From: Candidatus Nomurabacteria bacterium GW2011_GWE2_34_25
GTDB taxonomy: Bacteria > Patescibacteriota > Minisyncoccia > Phycocordibacterales > UBA9973
DNA: 64,000 bases
Reading direction: 5' to 3'
NCBI GenBank assembly: GCA_000990325.1
Contig: LBPS01000005.1
Coordinates: 17,161 to 81,160 of the forward strand
Translations under genes and position numbers: made by a program
The notes under the pieces: generated by a model
What the model was told of the DNA's origin: nothing
Databases searched by the model: none
What the model saw: only the letters and a program-made list of their open reading frames with translations
Part shown: piece by piece, positions 8,595 through 59,597 of the stretch
Position numbering within the stretch: the stretch's first letter is position 1
Layout of the letters: the number at the start of each line of letters is the position of its first letter

Positions 8595-10490
8595 ATGAGT
8601 AAAATTATAGGTATCGATTTGGGTACAACAAATAGTGCAGTGGCTATCATTGAAGGTGGTCAACCAAAAATTATTGAGAATATCGAGGGTGCTCGTACAA
8701 CTCCATCAGTGGTAGCAATTACCAAGAATGGTGATCGTATGGTGGGTCTTCTAGCGAAGCGTCAAGCAGTGACGAATCCTGAAAATACTGTTTACGGTAT
8801 TAAGAGATTCATTGGTCACATGTACGATGATCCAGAAATTCAGAAAGACGAGAAGACTATTCCTTACAAAATTCAGAAAGGAAGTACTGGTGGAGTAGAA
8901 ACAAAGATTGGAGATAGTTGGCTACGCCCAGAAGAGATTTCCGCTATGATTTTAAGTAAGATTAAGGCAGATGTAGAAGCAAAGCTCGGTGAGAAGATTA
9001 CTGAAGCAGTTATTACAGTTCCTGCATATTTCAACGATGCTCAGAGAAAGGCTACAAAAGACGCAGGGATCATCGCAGGACTTGATGTAAAACGTATTAT
9101 CAATGAACCTACTGCAGCTGCTCTTGCTTATGGATTTAATACAAAGAAAAATGAGAAGATTGTTGTCTACGACTTTGGAGGAGGTACGTTTGACGTGTCA
9201 GTTCTTGAAGTCGGCGATGATGTTATTGAAGTGAAGTCTACCGATGGCGATTCACACATGGGTGGTGAAGACATTGACCAGAAAATTGTGAAGTGGATTG
9301 CCGATGAATACAAGAAAGAATCAGGTATAGATGTTACTAAAGATATGCTCGCATTGCAACGTCTAAAGGAGGCTGCTGAGAAGACAAAGCATGAACTTTC
9401 AACAACAACAGATTCAGAAATAAATATTCCATTTATTACTTCAGATGCATCAGGACCAAAACATTTACTCTTGAAAATGTCTCGTGCGGTTCTAGAGTCT
9501 CTTGCAGAAGAGTATGTAACTCGTTCGATAGAAATTACAAAAAGAGCAGTTGAAGCTTCTCCATTTAAAATGGATGAAATTCATGAGATCATATTGGTTG
9601 GAGGTCAGACAAGAATGCCAAAGATTGTGGAAGAAGTAAAGAAATTGTTTGGTAAAGAACCAAATCGTTCAATCAATCCAGATGAAGTAGTAGCTCTCGG
9701 TGCTGCAGTACAAGCTGGAGTCCTACAGGGCGACGTACGCGACGTTCTTCTTCTAGACGTTATTCCACTATCTCTTGGAATAGAAACTCTTGGGAGGGTC
9801 GCCACAAAGCTCGTAGAACGCAACACAACCATACCTTCATCTAAGTCACAAATATTCTCAACTGCCGCAGACAATCAGACAAGCGTAGAAATACACATTA
9901 CTCAAGGTGAGCGTCCAATGGCAAGTGACAACAAGTCTCTCGGTAGATTTATCTTAGATGGTATTCCACCTTCACCACGAGGTATTCCTCAGGTGGAAGT
10001 TACCTTCGATGTAGATGCCAATGGAATCTTAAATGTGAAAGCCATGGACAAAGCTTCAGGCAAAGTTCAGTCAATTCGTATTGAAGCAAGTTCAGGACTT
10101 ACAGAAGCAGATATTAAAAAGATGCGAGATGAAGCAGAAGCTCATGCTGAAGAAGACGCTAAAAAGAAAGAATTAGCTGATCATAAGAATACAGCTGAAA
10201 TGATGATTTTCACAGCTGAGAAATCAGTCAAAGAATATGGCGACAAAGTTACTCCAGAAATAAAGACAGAAATAGAAAGTAAAATAACTGCGTTAAAAAC
10301 TGCAAAAGAAGGCAACGACATGGAAGCTATAAAGAAAGCAACAGAAGAACTTTCAAATGAAATGTCGAAAATTGGCGATAAGGCTCCAGAAGAGCAAGGC
10401 CCAGAAATAAGAGATGCGGAAACTACTGAAAGTAGTGCAGGTGCTGACAAAGGAAGTGCAGAAGTAAATGAAAATCCAGAACAGAAATAG
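8595..10490 (+). CDS. dnaK: molecular chaperone DnaK (Hsp70)
   Basis: [18 protein letters not shown], and 631 aa in length. Confidence 0.97.
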
Positions 10491-10514
10491 GAAATTGAAT
10501 AAATAAAAGACTTA

Positions 10515-10623
10515 CTGAAAACAGCTTCTCCTCTCGGGTCCGCATAATTTCTTGCTAGAAATTTGCTCATTGCTCGGCTCGTCAGCCTGCGCCGGCCCCT
10601 CGCTGAAAACTATTTTCATGCAG
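10515..10623 (+). ncRNA. conserved structured intergenic element, copy 1 (after dnaK)
   Basis: Core GGGTCCGCATAATTTCTTGCTAGAAATTTGCTCATTGCTC... ending CGCCGGCCCCT. The 40-nt core is identical to the copy at 49744-49783. Flanking terminal stems are complementary but differ in sequence between the two copies (covariation). Confidence 0.5.
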
Positions 10624-10651
10624 TCTTTGTATTTATGCTAATATATAAACT

Positions 10652-11740
10652 ATGCCCAAAGATTATTACAAAACATTAGGAGTAGATAAGAATGCTTCGA
10701 AGGAAGAGATTAAGAAAGCTTTCCATAAGCTGGCTCATGCTCATCATCCAGACAAGAATAAAGGTGATGATAAAAAGTTTAAGGAAATAAATGAAGCTTA
10801 TCAGGTTCTTTCGGATGACAAGAAGCGAGCTTCTTTCGATCAATTTGGTAATGCCGATGGACCTCAGGGCTTCGGTGGCGGAGGATTTGGGGGACAAGGA
10901 GGATTTGGAGGGTTTGATTTCACAGGGCAGAATGGTGGAGTGGAATTTGATATGGGTAACCTAGGAGATATCTTCGGAGACTTTTTCGGTGGGGGTATGG
11001 GACGTAGTCAAAAAGTTAAGAAAGGTAGAGACGTACAGACGGAAATAACCCTAACTTTCGAAGAAGCTATTTTTGGTGTAGATAAAAATATAAAAATAAA
11101 TAAGCAGTCAGTCTGTAGTATTTGTGGTGGTACAGGGGCGAAAGTTGGCACCAAAATGAATACTTGTAACACTTGCGATGGGCAAGGGCAAGTACGAGAG
11201 GTTCGTCGTTCTATACTTGGCAACTTTGCGACGACGAAAACTTGCGAGACTTGTTTTGGAAAAGGAAAAGTTCCTTCTGAAAAGTGTAGTAACTGTAAGG
11301 GTGCTGGTGTAGTAAGGAAAGATGAAGAAATAAGTCTAAATATTCCGTCAGGTATAAATAATGCTGAGACTCTTCGTGTACGTGGGAGGGGCGAAGCTAT
11401 ACAAGGAGGAGAGGCTGGGGATTTGTACGTGAAGCTCGATGTGAAGTCGCACCCTGTTTACACTCGTGAAGGGCAAAACTTAATGATGGATTTGAATATT
11501 AAACTCACAGATGCACTCCTCGGTATGACTTACAACTTGAAAACTCTTGATGGGAAGAACATGGAAGTGAAAATTCCTGAAGGTATAAACAATGGTGAGA
11601 TGCTTCGTGTAAAAGGTAAAGGTGTACCAACTACTCACGGCAAAGGCGATACCATCATCCGTATTCACGTAAACATGCCATCCAAACTTTCCCGCAAAGC
11701 AAAAGAGTCTATCGAAAAGCTAAAAGAAGAGGGAATCTAA
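10652..11740 (+). CDS. dnaJ: chaperone DnaJ (Hsp40)
   Basis: J-domain HPDKN, a G/F-rich linker, four CxxCxGxG zinc-finger repeats, and a C-terminal domain. Confidence 0.95.
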
Positions 11741-19357: not shown

Positions 19358-19405
19358 CAAAAATTAAAATGCACTAGGTCTTGCCTAGTGCATTTTAATT
19401 TTTCA
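19358..19405. terminator. bidirectional terminator between the kinase gene (+) and cysS (-)
   Basis: aaaattaaaatgcactagg-tcttg-cctagtgcattttaatttt, a long perfect hairpin flanked by A/T runs. Confidence 0.8.
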
Positions 19406-22869: not shown

Positions 22870-22896
22870 TGCTGTCAGAATTTTAACAAAAAATAA

Positions 22897-22930
22897 GAGC
22901 GTATGAGAAAATTTTCTCATACGCTCTTTA
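22897..22930. terminator. bidirectional terminator between pyrF (+) and the PRTase gene (-)
   Basis: agagcgtatgagaaaa/ttttctcatacgctct perfect hairpin with flanking T/A runs. Confidence 0.8.
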
Positions 22931-22948
22931 TTTTTTACTACTTAAATT

Positions 22949-36448: not shown

Positions 36449-36530
36449 GCCCGAGTGGCGGAACTGGTATACGCGCACGACTTAAAATCGTGTCTCGTAA
36501 GGGATGTGGGTTCGATTCCCACCTCGGGCA
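36449..36530 (+). tRNA. tRNA-Leu (anticodon UAA)
   Basis: Hand-folded: acceptor GCCCGAG/CTCGGGC, anticodon stem CACGA/TCGTG with loop CTTAAAA, a 13-nt variable arm (class II), T-arm GTGGG-TTCGATT-CCCAC. No encoded CCA. Confidence 0.85.
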
Positions 36531-42798: not shown

Positions 42799-43788
42799 AT
42801 GCTTAATCAAAAATTAAAACTAAATACAAAAATATTTAATTCTGATGTAGAGAAGAAATCTACTCGTCTCGGCTTTGGTGAAGGGTTACTCATTGCTGGA
42901 ACACAAAATGAAAACATCGTAGGACTTTGTGCTGACTTAGTAGAATCTACTAAGATGAACTTATTTGCTGACAAATTCCCTGATAGATTTATAGAATTAG
43001 GAATTGCTGAACAAAACTTAGCGTCTGTGGCAAGTGGCATGGCTTCTATGGGCAAAATTCCTTTTATTGCTTCTTATGCAATTTATAGTCCTGGACGTAA
43101 TTGGGAACAAATACGCACAACTATTTGTTTTAATGGAGAACCTGTTAAGATTATCGGCACACATGCAGGTCTTTCTGTGGGTCCTGATGGAGGAAGCCAC
43201 CAATGCCTAGAAGACATTGCTCTTACTCGCGTACTTCCTAACATGGTAGTTATTTCTCCTTGTGACGCTATCGAAGCTAAGAAGGCAACTATTGTAATGT
43301 CAAAAACAAAAAGCCCGACATACCTACGGTGTGCCAGGAATGATACTCCAATAATAACAACAGAGGAAACTCCATTTGAAATAGGTAAAGCACAAATAGT
43401 TTTCCAGCCTGAAAATGGACTCGCCCAATTGGGAATAATCGCTACAGGACCATCAGTATACAATGCGCTAATAGTAGCTAAAAATTTAGAAAGTGAAGGA
43501 ATAAAGGTGAAGGTTATGAATCTATCCACTATAAAACCTTTAGACAGTGATGCTATTATGGCCTTAGCAAAAGAAACCAAAAAAATAGTAACAGTGGAAG
43601 ACCATCAAATTGCTGGCGGTATGGGAGGAGCTGTTGCTGAATGCCTAGCTCAAAACTATCCTACTAGAATAGAGTTTGTGGGAGTAAAAGACAAATTTGG
43701 ACAGTCAGGTATACCTGAAGAACTCGCAAAATATTACGAAATAGACCAAGAGGCGATACTTAGGGCTGTAAGAAAAATATTGAAATAA
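42799..43788 (+). CDS. transketolase, C-terminal (Pyr/C-terminal domain) subunit
   Basis: GIAEQNLASVASGMAS and FVGVKDKFGQSG. Confidence 0.9.
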   Translation: MLNQKLKLNTKIFNSDVEKKSTRLGFGEGLLIAGTQNENIVGLCADLVESTKMNLFADKFPDRFIELGIAEQNLASVASGMASMGKIPFIASYAIYSPGRNWEQIRTTICFNGEPVKIIGTHAGLSVGPDGGSHQCLEDIALTRVLPNMVVISPCDAIEAKKATIVMSKTKSPTYLRCARNDTPIITTEETPFEIGKAQIVFQPENGLAQLGIIATGPSVYNALIVAKNLESEGIKVKVMNLSTIKPLDSDAIMALAKETKKIVTVEDHQIAGGMGGAVAECLAQNYPTRIEFVGVKDKFGQSGIPEELAKYYEIDQEAILRAVRKILK

Positions 43789-43802
43789 AAATAATAAAAA
43801 AT

Positions 43803-43830
43803 AAGGAAGTCGGACTTCCTTATTTTTTAT
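43803..43830. terminator. bidirectional terminator between tkt (+) and the kinase gene (-)
   Basis: aaggaagtccggacttcctt perfect palindrome followed by a T run. Confidence 0.8.
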
Positions 43831-43835
43831 TACTT

Positions 43836-44834
43836 TTATTTAATTTGAGTTAGTTTATAATTTTCAGGAGCATTCGTTAAATATTCTTCTAATTTTTCTC
43901 TTGAGAGAAGTCCTTTTTGAGGTCCAACTTGTAAGACAACAGACATGGCATTGATAGGTCCCCACGTTAAGGCCTCTTTTAAATCTTTTTCTAATATTAA
44001 GGCCGAGACAACAGCCGAAGCAAAAGCATCACCAGCTCCCGTTGATTCAAAAGAGGATGTGCTGTATACAGGAATAAACCAGATATTGATTCCATCATCT
44101 AAATAAGCCCCCCTAAGCCCATCTGTCATTATTATATTCTTTGGACCAATAGACCTCAACATGGTCATCAATTTAACAGCATCATTTTCTTCGGTTTCTA
44201 AGATTTTTTGAGCTTCAACTAAATTACAGAAGAGTATTTCTGTTTTTTGATATATATCCCTTAAAGCTTCAATTCCAAGTTTAATTTGAAATGTTCCAGG
44301 TTGAAAAGCTAATTTTACCTCAGGAAATTTATTTAAATAATCATTTATTTCTTTGTGATAATCGATTGAATTTGAAGCTAACGACGAAAGATAAACCCAT
44401 TTAGCTTGAGGAACATCTTCACCTAAAGAATAAGGGAATTCTGTATGCTTCACAAGAATTGTTCGCTCAGTTTCGTACCAAAGAACAAAATGATAATTGG
44501 ACTCCATACCAGGAACTATTTTCATATGATCTACATTGACACCATCTTTCATTAAAGATTCTAAGTCTTGTTTGCCTACAGTATCATCCCCAATATAAGA
44601 AACGAGGGACGACTTGAGACCAAGCTTACTTACACCAACTGCTACATTGGGACTGTTGCCTACAGCATGGCATACTTCTGCAGATTCATAGGGTACCTTT
44701 TCTCCGAAACGAAAACATATCTTGCAATGTTCCCCCTGTAAATCACAATTGGCTTCTGCATCAATAATCTTTATAAATGGCTCAGTTGCTATATCTCCTA
44801 TAGCTAGAAAATCTATTTGTTTATCTTTATCCAT
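43836..44834 (-). CDS. PfkB-family carbohydrate kinase
   Basis: Ribokinase-like fold with a C-terminal TGAGDAF motif. Confidence 0.75.
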   Translation of the reverse strand: MDKDKQIDFLAIGDIATEPFIKIIDAEANCDLQGEHCKICFRFGEKVPYESAEVCHAVGNSPNVAVGVSKLGLKSSLVSYIGDDTVGKQDLESLMKDGVNVDHMKIVPGMESNYHFVLWYETERTILVKHTEFPYSLGEDVPQAKWVYLSSLASNSIDYHKEINDYLNKFPEVKLAFQPGTFQIKLGIEALRDIYQKTEILFCNLVEAQKILETEENDAVKLMTMLRSIGPKNIIMTDGLRGAYLDDGINIWFIPVYSTSSFESTGAGDAFASAVVSALILEKDLKEALTWGPINAMSVVLQVGPQKGLLSREKLEEYLTNAPENYKLTQIK

Positions 44835-49484: not shown

Positions 49485-49712
49485 ATGAAGAAAAACATTC
49501 ACCCAAAATATAACAATAAATCAGTAGTCACATGTGCATGTGGAGCTACTTTCCCCGTAGGATCTACCATGGATAGCATTACAGTTGAAATATGCAGTCA
49601 GTGCCACCCTTTCTATACCGGTAATGAAAAGGTTCTCGACACAGCAGGACGTGTAGACCGCTTCAAGAAGCGTGCAGCCGCAGGTGCAAAGGCAACAAAA
49701 ACAAAAAAGTAA
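49485..49712 (+). CDS. rpmE: 50S ribosomal protein L31
   Basis: MKKNIHPKY...CxC...[10 protein letters not shown] matches zinc-ribbon L31. Confidence 0.9.
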
Positions 49713-49721
49713 CTTAAAAAA

Positions 49722-49827
49722 ATCATAAATAGCTCTTCTCAGAGGGTCCGCATAATTTCTTGCTAGAAATTTGCTCATTGCTCAGTCCGTCGACCTCCGC
49801 CGGCCCCTCTGATAAGACTATTTATGA
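49722..49827 (+). ncRNA. conserved structured intergenic element, copy 2 (after rpmE)
   Basis: The same 40-nt core as 10536-10575, plus a conserved CGCCGGCCCCT. Terminal inverted repeats atcataaatag...cagaggg / ccctctg...ctatttatgat are perfect here. Confidence 0.5.
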
Positions 49828-49864
49828 TTTTTTTAATACTCTTTTATTTGATATAATAAAAAAT

Positions 49865-50839
49865 ATGAATTTAGATTTAGAACAACTCAAGAAAGATCAC
49901 AAGACTAGCTATTTCGCTCTAGAATACGAGCGCCTTTTAATTGAAGAAGAAAAAGTAAATGATATGGTAGCTCTTGATGAAAGTCTACGTGACCTTGCAG
50001 AAGAGGAAATCCAAAATATTAAATTTCAAAAGGAAGCAATTGAAAGACAATTAGAAGAAATAATGAAAAGGGATATAGAGGAAGAAGAGTTCCCCAATGA
50101 AATTATCCTTGAAGTTCGCGCTGGAGCTGGAGGGGATGAAGCTTCACTTTTCGCATGGGAGCTTGCTCATATGTACGAAAGATTCTCTGAAGAGAAAAAT
50201 TGGAATTGGAAAATTCTCAATGAATCCTTAAGTAGTGCTGGTGGGTACAAAGAAGCATCGATAGAAGTAAAAGGTAAAGATGTATACAAGCTTCTACGCT
50301 ACGAGACCGGAGTTCATAGAGTACAACGTATTCCTGCCACAGAGAAAAATGGAAGAATACATACTTCGACAGCGTCAGTTGCTGTTCTTCCTTTGAAAAA
50401 GAAAACAACAATAGTCATAAATCCTGCAGATATAGAGATAGAGTACTCACGCTCAGGTGGAGCAGGAGGGCAGAATGTAAACAAAGTAGAGACAGCTGTT
50501 CGTCTTATACATAAGCCGACAGGAGAAGATGTTCGTTGTACTACGGAGAGAACCCAACTTGGCAACAGAGAAAAGGCTATGATGATGCTTACCTCTAAGC
50601 TTCAAATGATTAAAGATGAGGAAGATGCTAAAAAATATTCAGGGGACAGAAAAGCTCAAATAGGTACAAATGATAGAAGTGAGAAGATCCGCACCTACAA
50701 CTTCCCGCAAGATAGAGTCACCGACCACCGCATCAAGCAATCTTGGTCCAATATTCCTGGAATAATGGAGGGGAATATAAGTAGAATCATAGAAGCCCTT
50801 TCAAGTGGACAAGTAGGGGATGCAGAGGAAGAGGAGTAA
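49865..50839 (+). CDS. prfA: peptide chain release factor 1
   Basis: PAT tripeptide motif (PATE) and GGQ ([19 protein letters not shown]). The start is set at the first ATG downstream of the repeat element, so the N-terminal domain is short. Confidence 0.88.
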
Positions 50840-52159: not shown

Positions 52160-52231
52160 TGCGTGTGCTTGGAATCGGACCAAGGACCTCTGTCTTATCA
52201 GGACAGCGTTCTACCACTGAACTACACACGC
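52160..52231 (-). tRNA. tRNA-Ile (anticodon GAU)
   Basis: Hand-folded from the reverse complement: acceptor GCGTGTG/CACACGC, D-arm GTTC-AGTGGTA-GAAC, anticodon stem CTGTC/GACAG with loop CTGATAA, T-arm CTTGG-TCCGATT-CCAAG. Confidence 0.85.
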
Positions 52232-58750: not shown

Positions 58751-59197
58751 ATGAGTAAACTACTACAACTTAAAATAGTTACACCAGAAAAACTTATCCT
58801 CGAAGAGGAGGTAGAGTCTGTAACTATACCTACCAAAGAAGGAGAGATAACCATTTTGCCAGATCATGTGCCCCTTATCGCTCCTTTAGCTTCTGGAGAT
58901 ATCGTTTCTTTTGTAAATGGAGAGCATGTGCCAGTCGCTGTCGTAGGTGGATTTGTAGAAGTGAAAACTGGAGATAAAGGTACTACAGAAGTCGCTATCT
59001 TAGCTGACTTTGCTGAACATGTAGGAGACATCACAGAGGAAGCAATTGATAAAGCAAAAACTAAATCGGAAGAACTGCGTAAGCTTGCAGAGAACAAAGA
59101 AGTGGTAGACTTTGAACACTTTGAATCCGAACTCGAACGCTCACTCACAAGAGTTAAAATAGCTGATAAGTGGAAGAATAAAAAATATAGGAGATAA
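58751..59197 (+). CDS. atpC: ATP synthase F1 epsilon subunit
   Basis: LKIVTPEK...PDHVPLIAPL. Confidence 0.9.
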   Translation: MSKLLQLKIVTPEKLILEEEVESVTIPTKEGEITILPDHVPLIAPLASGDIVSFVNGEHVPVAVVGGFVEVKTGDKGTTEVAILADFAEHVGDITEEAIDKAKTKSEELRKLAENKEVVDFEHFESELERSLTRVKIADKWKNKKYRR

Positions 59198-59203
59198 AAG
59201 AAT

Positions 59204-59241
59204 AGGCCTGCCAGATAAAATCTGGCAGGCCTATTTTATTT
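59204..59241 (+). terminator. rho-independent terminator of the atp operon
   Basis: aggcctgccagat-aaaa-tctggcaggcct followed by attttattt. Confidence 0.85.
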
Positions 59242-59597
59242 ATTAGTAAAAAACACTAAAAAAAAGAAATCCAAAAGATCCTCAAACCTCTTAGGAAATA
59301 AATACGCAAGAAAAGCTGTTGCTGGAAATAAAACCAACAACAAAATTACAATAATCTGATAATTTTCCATAACAAATATTTTTTAATTTTTTTGACGAAA
59401 AATTATTTTTTTTATCAAAGAGAACAAGATGTTGCCAATTAAGGCTATAGTGGCACACACACCAGCAATAATCATAAAAGAAATTATATCTTTTTCCATT
59501 GGGTCAATTTTTTTAATGTTAGTTTCTTTAACTATATTACTCTATGAAGCGCTAGTCAAGTGATAAAAATTTTAAATAATGATGATATAATCTACCT

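What the first reader, a model, noticed from the sequence alone, without database searches (positions are those of the whole stretch)
10515..10623. ~105-nt structured element after dnaK (copy 1 of 2) with 40-nt core identical to a second locus
The 40-mer GGGTCCGCATAATTTCTTGCTAGAAATTTGCTCATTGCTC (10536-10575) plus ..CGTC..CCT.CGCCGGCCCCT recurs after rpmE at 49744-49808. The core holds an AATTTC-ttgcta-GAAATT hairpin and a GC-rich GGGTCCGC/GCCGGCCC pairing. The two copies have different terminal sequences, yet both are long inverted repeats: here ctgaaaacag.../...ctgaaaactattttca, there atcataaatag.../...ctatttatgat. Terminal stems that co-vary argue for a conserved RNA structure rather than a MITE with fixed TIRs. 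Both copies sit in the same orientation directly 3' of highly expressed genes and 5' of the next gene (dnaJ, prfA).
Basis: seen in the sequence. Interest (0 to 1): 0.65.

Follow-up and report, generated by a model that had tools for sequence, protein, structure and literature searches.

The report
Hairpin-tip repeat family in CPR bacteria
The two look-alike sequences after dnaK and rpmE belong to a large, apparently undescribed family of about 120-nt hairpin-forming intergenic repeats in tiny "candidate phyla radiation" bacteria, in which a conserved, structured cap sits on the tip of a hairpin whose stem differs at each locus.

Summary
The 40-mer is identical at 10536-10575 and 49744-49783, and both copies are long hairpins directly after dnaK and rpmE. 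They are not a private pair. The same core occurs at least 8 times in a related 0.8-Mb Nomurabacteria genome, and a capped metagenome scan returned more than 120 places. All identifiable hosts are Patescibacteria (CPR). No Rfam family matches, viral contigs gave no hit, and four literature searches found nothing.

Anatomy: a long basal stem that differs between copies (median about 23 bp) carries a conserved core of about 65 nt. The core has two hairpins with near-invariant loops (UGCU, CGUC) and near-invariant junction strands. Across 119 members the stems covary strongly (87% paired against 65% when shuffled).

Close relatives have a plain A-run/T-run terminator-type hairpin in the rpmE-prfA spacer, exactly where the window carries the capped one. 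The dnaK-dnaJ copy shares its base with the orthologous copy in another genome, but shares its cap with the window's rpmE copy.

Best reading: a REP/ERIC-like structured repeat that sits on tips of intergenic hairpins and is exchanged between loci. At these two loci it probably ends or protects the upstream mRNA. Function and mobility mechanism are inferred. G.U pairs are not favoured, so a DNA-level role is not excluded.

The parts
10506..10628 (+). Copy 1: the whole hairpin element in the dnaK-dnaJ spacer
   Evidence: Covariance-model hit at 10504-10626, 95.6 bits. Sequence, fold.
10509..10524 (+). Copy 1, 5' basal arm: outer stem GACT, internal loop TAC, inner stem TGAAAA, then CAG
   Evidence: Read. 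The arm is nearly identical to the orthologous arm in L142, although the cores differ.
10536..10575 (+). Copy 1: the 40-mer of the apical core, identical to copy 2
10546..10563 (+). Copy 1, hairpin P3: AATTTCT / loop TGCT / AGAAATT
   Evidence: Alignment columns 64-70 pair with 77-83. 98.7% of cells are paired across 119 members, and 5 of the 7 pairs show changes on both sides.
10564..10575 (+). Copy 1, junction strand TGCTC-ATTG-CTC. TTTGCTC and CTC are near-invariant. The last linker base G10572 pairs with C10592.
   Evidence: Column composition. Pair col92-col113: GC 55, AU 31, UA 14, CG 7, UG 3, 6 unpaired, 3 gaps.
10576..10587 (+). Copy 1, hairpin P4: GGCT / loop CGTC / AGCC
   Evidence: 99.2% of cells paired. 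The two middle pairs switch among GC, CG, UA and AU.
10588..10601 (+). Copy 1: 3' junction TGCG plus the 3' strand of the upper basal stem (CCGGCCCCTC)
10610..10625 (+). Copy 1, 3' basal arm: CTA, inner stem TTTTCA, internal loop TGC, outer stem AGTC
49716..49834 (+). Copy 2: the whole hairpin element in the rpmE-prfA spacer
   Evidence: Covariance-model hit at 49712-49834, 106.8 bits. Fold -44.2 kcal/mol, z = -7.9.
49716..49728 (+). Copy 2, 5' basal arm AAAAAAATCATAA: A-run plus stem, terminator-type
   Evidence: Relatives have a plain A-run/T-run hairpin at this same place.
49729..49821 (+). Copy 2: the 93-nt unit ATAG...CTAT, whose sequence is shared by A-type copies at other loci and in other genomes
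49744..49783 (+). Copy 2: the 40-mer of the apical core. It contains P3 at 49754-49771; P4 follows at 49784-49795.
   Evidence: In P4, A49784 faces C; another strain (L001) has G there, which restores the pair.
49822..49834 (+). Copy 2, 3' basal arm TTATGATTTTTTT: stem plus T-run
8595..10490 (+). dnaK, upstream of copy 1
   Evidence: Pfam HSP70, E = 2.9e-241
10652..11740 (+). dnaJ, downstream of copy 1
   Evidence: Pfam DnaJ, DnaJ_C and DnaJ_CXXCXGXG
49485..49712 (+). rpmE (ribosomal protein L31), upstream of copy 2
   Evidence: Pfam Ribosomal_L31
49865..50839 (+). prfA (release factor 1), downstream of copy 2
   Evidence: Pfam PCRF and RF-1

Best explanation
Each of the two sequences is a member of a large family of structured intergenic repeats specific to Patescibacteria. 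A unit consists of two parts.

(i) A conserved apical cap of about 65 nt. It contains hairpin P3 (7 bp, loop UGCU) and hairpin P4 (4 bp, loop CGUC), joined by near-invariant strands: CRCAUAA, UUUGCUC..CUC and CUNCG. These form a three-way-junction-like core.

(ii) A long basal stem whose outer part is specific to the locus.

Shown: the cap sits on the tip of hairpins of the kind this organism uses after genes, which are long perfect stems with an A-run and a T-run. Caps are shared between loci within a genome, while bases are shared between orthologous loci in different genomes. The same spacers hold different caps, a second unrelated cap family, or a plain hairpin.

Inferred: the cap is a transferable module, moved between hairpins either by gene conversion or by an unknown tip-directed insertion mechanism. 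The composite hairpin acts like REP, ERIC or BOX elements. When transcribed at the end of dnaK and rpmE it gives a very stable 3' structure that ends and/or protects the upstream message and uncouples dnaJ and prfA, which have their own -10-like boxes. The invariant loops and junction are probably a docking site for a conserved host factor.
For: Family size and hosts:
- 14 loci in species-representative genomes, 8 of them in one Nomurabacteria genome.

Structure:
- 19 of 21 RNAalifold pairs have compensatory changes.
- 87.2% of cells are paired against 64.6% when shuffled; 782 cells changed on both sides against 254; 0 of 500 shuffles reach the observed values; slid controls give 32-51% paired.

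Tip-of-hairpin model:
- The rpmE-prfA spacer of relatives (PrfA 93% and 89% identical) is about 70 nt. It holds a plain 21-bp A-run/T-run hairpin exactly where the window has a 13-bp A/T-run stem plus the 93-nt unit. The covariance model finds nothing in those relatives.
- The window's other terminators have the same plain type.

Cap exchange:
- The window's dnaK-dnaJ copy shares arms and flanks with L142 but shares its cap with the window's rpmE copy.
- Closer relatives (L017, L140, L141) carry another cap subtype and different arms, although the dnaJ promoter region is identical.

Conserved placement:
- 5 of 9 dnaK-dnaJ spacers sampled through DnaJ alone carry the element, always with a sense copy.
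- Five further cases come from the pattern scans.
- The four without it hold family X or a plain long hairpin.

Genomic context: convergent spacers are enriched, 29 of 92 against an 18% baseline, p = 0.005.
Against: - No transcript data exist, so RNA-level action is inferred from position only.
- G.U is not favoured over A.C: 40 against 62 in the alignment, 100 against 151 in the arms, and about 5 against 8 in P3 and P4. This is atypical for a + strand RNA under selection.
- Family-wide, orientation is mixed (30 sense, 21 antisense) and core integrity is equal in both.
- Only about 20-25% of copies have a T-run or A-run at the hairpin base, so most are not canonical intrinsic terminators.
- In two filled/empty comparisons (L078 against L010, L017 against the window) the arms are missing together with the cap. 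Tip insertion is therefore not the only history.
- No mobilising enzyme was identified.
Confidence: 0.5

Rival explanations
1. A purely selfish, non-autonomous DNA element, like a MITE, REPIN or PATE. In this reading the hairpins are recognised as folded single-stranded DNA by a trans-acting enzyme, such as an HUH/Y1 transposase or a recombinase. The structure serves mobility, and any effect on neighbouring genes is incidental.
For: - Pairing is strictly Watson-Crick with no G.U excess on either strand.
- Both orientations occur with equally intact cores.
- Near-identical caps occur at many loci and in several genomes.
- Presence/absence differences exist between relatives.
- The same spacer can be occupied by different subtypes or in the opposite orientation.
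- Subterminal inverted repeats ATAGCTCTTCTC.../...GATAAGACTAT are conserved within subfamilies.
- A Xer-type recombinase gene is bordered by family members in 5 of 6 related genomes.
Against: - No target-site duplication was found, and the outermost arms are not conserved.
- No ORF-carrying version or recurrent neighbouring enzyme was seen in 976 kb, apart from one orthologous locus.
- The element is retained in sense orientation in the dnaK-dnaJ spacer across genomes whose DnaJ is only 55-96% identical. Orthologous copies show compensatory changes (L027 against L084, read) in genomes that are otherwise very compact.
- The cap motif is conserved across hosts of very different G+C content, which fits a conserved host factor better than a fast-evolving transposase.
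Confidence: 0.3
2. Independent small-RNA genes, or a structured RNA with a fold of its own (a protein-recruiting module or a new ribozyme). The long stem would be a processing stem, for example for RNase III, that releases the roughly 65-nt junction RNA.
For: - The junction and loop nucleotides are near-invariant while the stems covary, which is the signature of folded functional RNAs.
- Stems of 20-45 bp with a conserved small internal loop resemble RNase III substrates.
- Orientation independent of the neighbours would be expected for autonomous genes.
- No known Rfam family matches.
Against: - There is no G.U tolerance.
- No conserved promoter-like motif is evident upstream of copies in the sequences read.
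- No pseudoknot or other tertiary covariation was found, and the candidate CGCA/UNCG helix failed.
- The mismatch bias (Y.Y on the + strand, hence G.A on the - strand) does not identify a single coding strand consistent with the sense placement at dnaK-dnaJ.
Confidence: 0.12
3. Nothing more than ordinary Rho-independent terminators of dnaK and rpmE that happen to resemble each other.
For: - Copy 2 has a 7-A run, a long stem and a 7-T run, and it replaces a plain terminator-type hairpin seen in relatives.
- Copies are enriched at gene 3' ends.
Against: - The identical 40-mer has a chance expectation of 0.
- There are hundreds of homologous copies with a conserved branched cap.
- Only 20-25% of copies have a T-run or A-run.
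- 12 copies lie in divergent (promoter-side) spacers.
Confidence: 0.05

Closest known systems
ERIC / IRU (enterobacterial repetitive intergenic consensus) elements
   Same: - Imperfect palindromes of about 120-130 nt in transcribed intergenic regions.
- Found in either orientation.
- Highly conserved sequence across species, while the occupied sites differ between relatives.
- Thought to act on mRNA stability or processing.
The ERIC properties come from my own knowledge; the properties of this family come.
   Different: - No sequence similarity.
- Different hosts (CPR).
- Here the conserved part is apical and branched (two hairpins plus a junction), and the outer stem varies. ERIC has conserved ends.
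- No TA duplication was seen.
REP / BIME / REPIN elements with their RAYT transposases
   Same: - Dispersed extragenic hairpins at gene 3' ends and inside operons.
- Lineage-specific sequence variants.
- Compensatory evolution of the stems.
- Classical role as a 3' stabiliser giving differential expression within operons.
- In one related locus a single-copy enzyme gene is bordered by repeats.
   Different: - REPs are 20-40 nt simple palindromes with a conserved GTAG-type 5' tetranucleotide.
- No Y1/HUH gene was found here; the bordered gene is a Xer-type tyrosine recombinase.
- Copy number is about 15 per 0.8 Mb rather than hundreds.
MITEs such as Correia (Neisseria), RUP and BOX (Streptococcus)
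   Same: - Short non-coding dispersed repeats of about 100-150 bp that fold into long hairpins.
- Presence/absence polymorphism.
- Subfamilies and chimeric copies.
   Different: - MITEs have fixed terminal inverted repeats and direct target-site duplications.
- Here the outermost arms are copy-specific and inverted, and no duplication was found.
- Internal hairpins covary between copies.
Elements that target hairpin tips or terminators (IS1397/ISKpn1 inserting in REP loops; class C group II introns inserting next to terminators)
   Same: A resident intergenic palindrome is the landing site. This matches the plain hairpin in relatives against the capped hairpin in the window.
   Different: - Those elements are autonomous, protein-coding and kilobase-sized.
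- This cap is 65-93 nt and non-coding, and no partner is known.

Membership tests
Any Rfam 15 RNA family | Score at or above the family's gathering threshold, or at least a credible E-value | tested here: not met
   The window scan at gathering thresholds finds only two tRNAs. Copy 1 scanned at E up to 10 gives only noise hits, none better than E = 1.4. Ten loci with GC-rich members give no relevant hit at the elements.
MITE | Terminal inverted repeats of fixed sequence shared by all copies | tested here: not met
   The outermost arms differ in every copy. Only subterminal segments (ATAGCTCTTCTC.../...GATAAGACTAT) are shared, and only within subfamilies.
MITE | Direct target-site duplication flanking the insertion | tested here: not met
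   The flanks are inverted, not direct. No duplication appears at the L078/L010 junctions or at the window/L149 junctions.
MITE | Multiple dispersed copies with presence/absence differences between relatives | tested here: met
MITE | An autonomous partner element with the same ends that encodes a transposase | tested here: inconclusive
   None was seen in 976 kb of flanking DNA. Whole genomes could not be scanned.
REP/REPIN-RAYT | A 20-40 nt palindrome with a conserved 5' tetranucleotide, and a Y1 (RAYT) gene flanked by the repeats | tested here: not met
   The unit is about 120 nt with a branched cap. The only repeat-bordered gene found is a Phage_integrase/Xer-type protein. RAYT absence from complete genomes was not tested.
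Intrinsic (Rho-independent) terminator | A stable stem-loop directly followed by a U-run on the transcribed strand | tested here: inconclusive
   Copy 2 meets it (7 T after the stem). Copy 1 has only TTTGTATTT. Family-wide, 20-25% of copies have a run of 4 or more T or A, unrelated to gene context.
Integron attC site | Conserved R''/R' boxes (RYYYAAC / GTTRRRY) at the base and a variable tip | tested here: not met
   The arrangement is the opposite: the base varies and the tip is conserved. No R-box motif is seen in the sequences (checked by eye).
dif / Xer core site | A 28-bp site: two 11-bp arms (..CATAA / TTATG..) around a 6-bp centre, one per replicon | tested here: not met
   Only CGCATAA resembles the XerC arm. 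There is no TTATG partner, the P3 arms covary freely between copies of one genome, and there are many copies per genome.
Known self-cleaving ribozymes (hammerhead, twister, pistol, hatchet, HDV-like) | A match to the class consensus core | tested here: not met
   No Rfam hit on either strand. The CUGACGAG on the minus strand of copy 1 is part of the variable P4 stem and is absent from copy 2.

The most novel reading that the evidence does not exclude
The conserved 65-93-nt cap may be a new kind of mobile or convertible module that homes to the single-stranded tips of long intergenic (terminator-type) hairpins in CPR bacteria. At least two unrelated cap families (this one and 'family X') compete for the same hairpins. 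Alternatively, or in addition, the cap may be a new folded RNA/DNA domain that recruits a conserved host factor to mRNA 3' ends.
Probability: 0.25. Interest if true: 0.8.

Novelty: new variant of a known kind. Interest (0 to 1): 0.62.

Why it matters
CPR/Patescibacteria have genomes under 1 Mb with very little non-coding DNA, and almost nothing is known about their RNA biology or their mobile DNA. This family has at least 15 copies in a 0.8-Mb genome. Its placement in conserved operon spacers (dnaK-dnaJ, rpmE-prfA) persists across deep divergence, and its branched core has riboswitch-grade covariation. It is therefore either a widespread regulatory or processing signal of these organisms or a new way for selfish DNA to persist, by riding on terminator hairpins. 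It reverses the usual architecture of bacterial repeats: here the centre is conserved and the ends vary. It also gives a concrete, testable model for cap exchange between hairpins. In practice, the covariance model could annotate hundreds of intergenic regions in CPR genomes and serve as a lineage marker.

Tried and rejected
- Rfam at gathering and permissive thresholds, on AT-rich and GC-rich members: nothing.
- Hammerhead-like CUGACGAG on the minus strand of copy 1: it lies in the variable P4 stem and is not conserved.
- Helix CGCA/UNCG closing the core: no covariation, and 62 of 119 sequences are unpaired at one position.
- dif/Xer site, CIRCE operator and attC site: the motifs do not fit (by eye).
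- Target-site duplication, including the idea that the T-N-C triplets on both arms are a 3-bp duplication: by eye, the middle base agrees in only about 9 of 23 copies, roughly what chance would give.
- Autonomous partner or recurrent neighbouring enzyme: none, except a Xer-type gene at one orthologous locus.
- Arms acting as guides that match other sequences: within the fetched DNA, arms matched only other family members.
- Phage origin: 0 hits in viral contigs with two patterns.
- Canonical terminator: T-runs or A-runs occur in a minority of copies and are unrelated to context.
- Identifying the functional strand from wobble pairs: no asymmetry towards the + strand. Sense and antisense copies are equally intact.
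- Literature: four full-text searches found no description.

Full report
**1. The observation**

The 40-mer GGGTCCGCATAATTTCTTGCTAGAAATTTGCTCATTGCTC is present exactly twice, at 10536-10575 and 49744-49783, both on the + strand. Zero matches are expected by chance, and no further copy appears with up to three mismatches. The second shared block, CGCCGGCCCCTC, is at 10590-10601 and 49798-49809.

Copy 1 lies between DnaK (8595-10490) and DnaJ (10652-11740). Copy 2 lies between ribosomal protein L31 (49485-49712) and release factor 1 (49865-50839). All four genes were confirmed with Pfam.

Both copies fold into long hairpins. Copy 2 folds at -44.2 kcal/mol (z = -7.9). Copy 1 is weaker on the + strand (z = -1.0) than on the - strand (z = -4.3).

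The window has 30-39% G+C. It is identical to a contig of a groundwater MAG (GCA_003446925.1) and to several aquifer metagenome contigs. Among those strains the element is invariant except for one A-to-G difference that restores a base pair in the small GC-rich hairpin.

**2. It is a family, not a pair**

- A degenerate core pattern found 14 loci in species-representative genomes. Eight of them are in Candidatus Nomurabacteria GW2011_GWD2_36_14.
This gave 127 distinct copies.
- Two patterns gave no hit in 2.9 million viral contigs.
- No Rfam 15 family matches AT-rich or GC-rich members.
- Four full-text literature searches found no description.
- A covariance model built from 119 members finds only the two known copies in the window: 106.8 and 95.6 bits, with the next hit at 16.6 bits.

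**3. Anatomy**

The parts run from outside to inside. Columns refer to alignment A3.

- **Basal stem.** It has a median of about 23 bp and reaches 49 bp. The whole hairpin has a median length of 118 nt. Its outer part differs in every copy.
  - In the AT-rich subfamilies the layout is: outer stem of 2-6 bp, a 3x3 internal loop reading T-N-C on both arms, an inner stem of 5-7 bp, then ATAG...CTAT.
- **Upper stem.** It is conserved within each subfamily.
- **Core.** In order: C-R-C-A-U-A-A; hairpin P3 (7 bp, loop UGCU); UUUGCUC; a linker of 2-4 nt; CUC; hairpin P4 (4 bp, loop CGUC); C-U-N-C-G; then an A-A-G-like bulge.

Covariation:

- RNAalifold finds compensatory changes in 19 of 21 pairs.
- With my structure, 87.2% of cells are paired against 64.6% in shuffles.
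- 782 cells changed on both sides against 254 in shuffles, and 0 of 500 shuffles reach the observed values. Slid controls give 32-51% paired.
- P3 is 98.7% paired and P4 is 99.2% paired.
- One extra pair, between the last linker base and the base after UNCG, covaries cleanly: GC 55, AU 31, UA 14, CG 7.
- A helix CGCA/UNCG is not supported.

**4. Which strand, RNA or DNA?**

- G.U pairs are not favoured. There are about 40 G.U against 62 A.C cells in the alignment, and 100 against 151 in 126 pairs of arms. P3 and P4 have almost no wobble at all.
- Mismatches in the arms are biased: 308 pyrimidine-pyrimidine against 66 purine-purine on the + strand. This reflects the T-N-C loop, which would be G-N-A/G-N-A on the other strand.
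- Relative to flanking genes, 30 copies are sense and 21 antisense (binomial p = 0.26). Their core scores are equal, with medians of 54.1 and 51.9 (p = 1.0).
- Copies are enriched between convergent genes: 29 of 92 against an 18% baseline, chi-square p = 0.005.
- T-runs or A-runs at the hairpin base occur in only 20-25% of copies, whatever the context.

The family as a whole therefore does not behave like a sense-strand cis-RNA or like a canonical terminator.

**5. Conserved placement**

The dnaK-dnaJ spacer carries a family member in sense orientation in the window, L017, L096, L027, L035 and L084. DnaJ in those genomes ranges down to about 55% identity.

I also took a sample that does not depend on the element, using nine spacers reached through DnaJ homologues of 64-96% identity:

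- Five carry the element, each with a sense copy. One of them has a second, antisense copy.
- Two of the other four carry a different repeat, 'family X', which is also a long stem with a conserved tip.
- The remaining two carry plain long hairpins.

This spacer therefore always holds a long hairpin. The rpmE-prfA spacer carries the element in sense orientation in L111 as well. Orthologous copies such as L027 and L084 differ by compensatory changes in the basal stem, P3 and P4 (sequences).

**6. Caps and bases have different histories**

- **Relatives have a plain hairpin at the same site.** In relatives with PrfA 93% and 89% identical, the rpmE-prfA spacer is only about 70 nt.
  - It holds a plain perfect hairpin, AAAAAAGATAAAAGGCTCTTT-AAA-GGAGCTTTTTATCTTTTTT, at the position where the window has AAAAAAATCATAA-[93-nt ATAG..CTAT unit]-TTATGATTTTTTT.
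  - The -10-like box and the start of prfA follow in all of them.
  - The covariance model finds nothing in those relatives.
  - Other terminators of the window are of the same plain type.
- **Copy 1 is a chimera.** The window's dnaK-dnaJ copy shares its arms and flanks almost base for base with L142 (DnaJ 76% identical), but the two caps differ. Its cap is identical to that of the window's rpmE copy.
- **Closer relatives differ again.** L017, L140 and L141 (DnaJ 87-98% identical) carry another cap subtype and other arms, although the dnaJ promoter region is identical.
- **One spacer, several occupants.** One spacer is occupied by an A-type copy in L011, by another subtype in the opposite orientation in L093, by family X in L080, and by a simple hairpin in L007.
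- **Counter-examples.** In L078 against L010, and in L017 against the window, the arms are absent together with the cap. These are whole-unit gains or losses, so they also occur.

No target-site duplication, ORF-carrying version or recurrent neighbouring enzyme was found. The one exception is a Xer-type recombinase gene bordered by family members at one orthologous locus in 5 of 6 related genomes.

**7. Interpretation**

Shown:
- This is a dispersed, structured repeat family of CPR bacteria with a conserved branched cap on a locus-specific hairpin.
- Caps are exchanged between loci.
- Some spacers retain the element across deep divergence.

Inferred:
- At dnaK and rpmE the composite hairpin works as REP and ERIC elements do in enterobacteria. 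It provides a stable 3' structure that ends or protects the upstream mRNA and uncouples the downstream gene.
- The invariant loops dock a conserved host factor.
- Caps spread by gene conversion or by an unknown tip-directed insertion.

The main rival is a selfish ssDNA-recognised element. It is favoured by the strictly Watson-Crick covariation and by the indifference to orientation. It is disfavoured by the long retention in fixed orientation in operon spacers of very compact genomes. A stand-alone small RNA or a ribozyme is possible but unsupported. 'Just two terminators' is refuted as a complete explanation.

**8. Novelty**

The kind is known: interspersed intergenic hairpin repeats. This family appears undescribed, and it reverses the usual architecture, with a conserved branched centre and variable ends. 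It also points to a hairpin-tip lifestyle shared with a second family. I rate it a new variant of a known kind, with interest about 0.6.

Noticed in passing
L010 ~1255-1340; L078 ~11460-11540; L080 2097-2284; L144 ~905-985; L147 ~890-975: A second, unrelated repeat ('family X') has the same build: a long variable stem with a conserved tip. The tip reads CGCTTTACCCAGAGTACTGGGCTCCGACGCG, or GTCGGAGCCCAGTACTCTGGGTAAAGCG on the other strand. It occupies the dnaK-dnaJ spacer in two genomes that lack the main family, and it sits next to main-family sites elsewhere. It has no credible Rfam match (the best hit, snoR126, scored 20 bits at E = 0.39, below its threshold).
   Followed up: partly
window 19359-19403, 22888-22935, 43783-43841, 59193-59244: The ordinary intergenic hairpins of this genome are unusually long, near-perfect stems of about 18-24 bp flanked by an A-run and a T-run, with 3-4-nt loops. 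They look like bidirectional terminators.
   Followed up: partly
L011 4419-5408 (also L007, L032, L060, L073): A Xer-type tyrosine recombinase gene (Pfam Phage_integrase plus SAM-like N-terminal domain) is bordered by family members in 5 of 6 related genomes. In L011 there is one on each side, of different subtypes. This could be an insertion hot spot or a lead to the partner enzyme.
   Followed up: partly
L146 743-988: Two family members lie head to head (one sense, one antisense) within a single 255-nt dnaK-dnaJ spacer.
   Followed up: no
L020 2715-2837; L013 1537-1668; L032 1519-1640; L100 7700-7820: These variant members have an extra hairpin, GTGATTC-TG(C/G)T-GAATCAC, with the same UGCU-type loop. 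It replaces the 5' strand of the upper stem, as if the P3 module had been duplicated.
   Followed up: no
window 49784 versus L001 3300: The only difference among six strains in this spacer is A (window) against G (L001). It falls at the first base of P4 and turns an A.C mismatch into a G-C pair.
   Followed up: yes
L001 4558-4842 (about 200 nt downstream of prfA; corresponds to window ~51.0-51.3 kb): A 94-aa protein with a eukaryote-type RRM_1 RNA-binding domain is encoded just downstream of prfA (precomputed Pfam). It is a conceivable binder of single-stranded U/G-rich loops. This was not tested.
   Followed up: no
L037, L062, L113, L125, L135 (one identical locus): Next to one family member the only long ORF looks like a spurious reading frame, of the sort often seen across an rRNA gene. 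That element may therefore border an rRNA operon. This was not checked with Rfam.
   Followed up: no
window 36449-36530 (+), 52160-52231 (-): Two tRNA genes are the only Rfam matches in the window.
   Followed up: no
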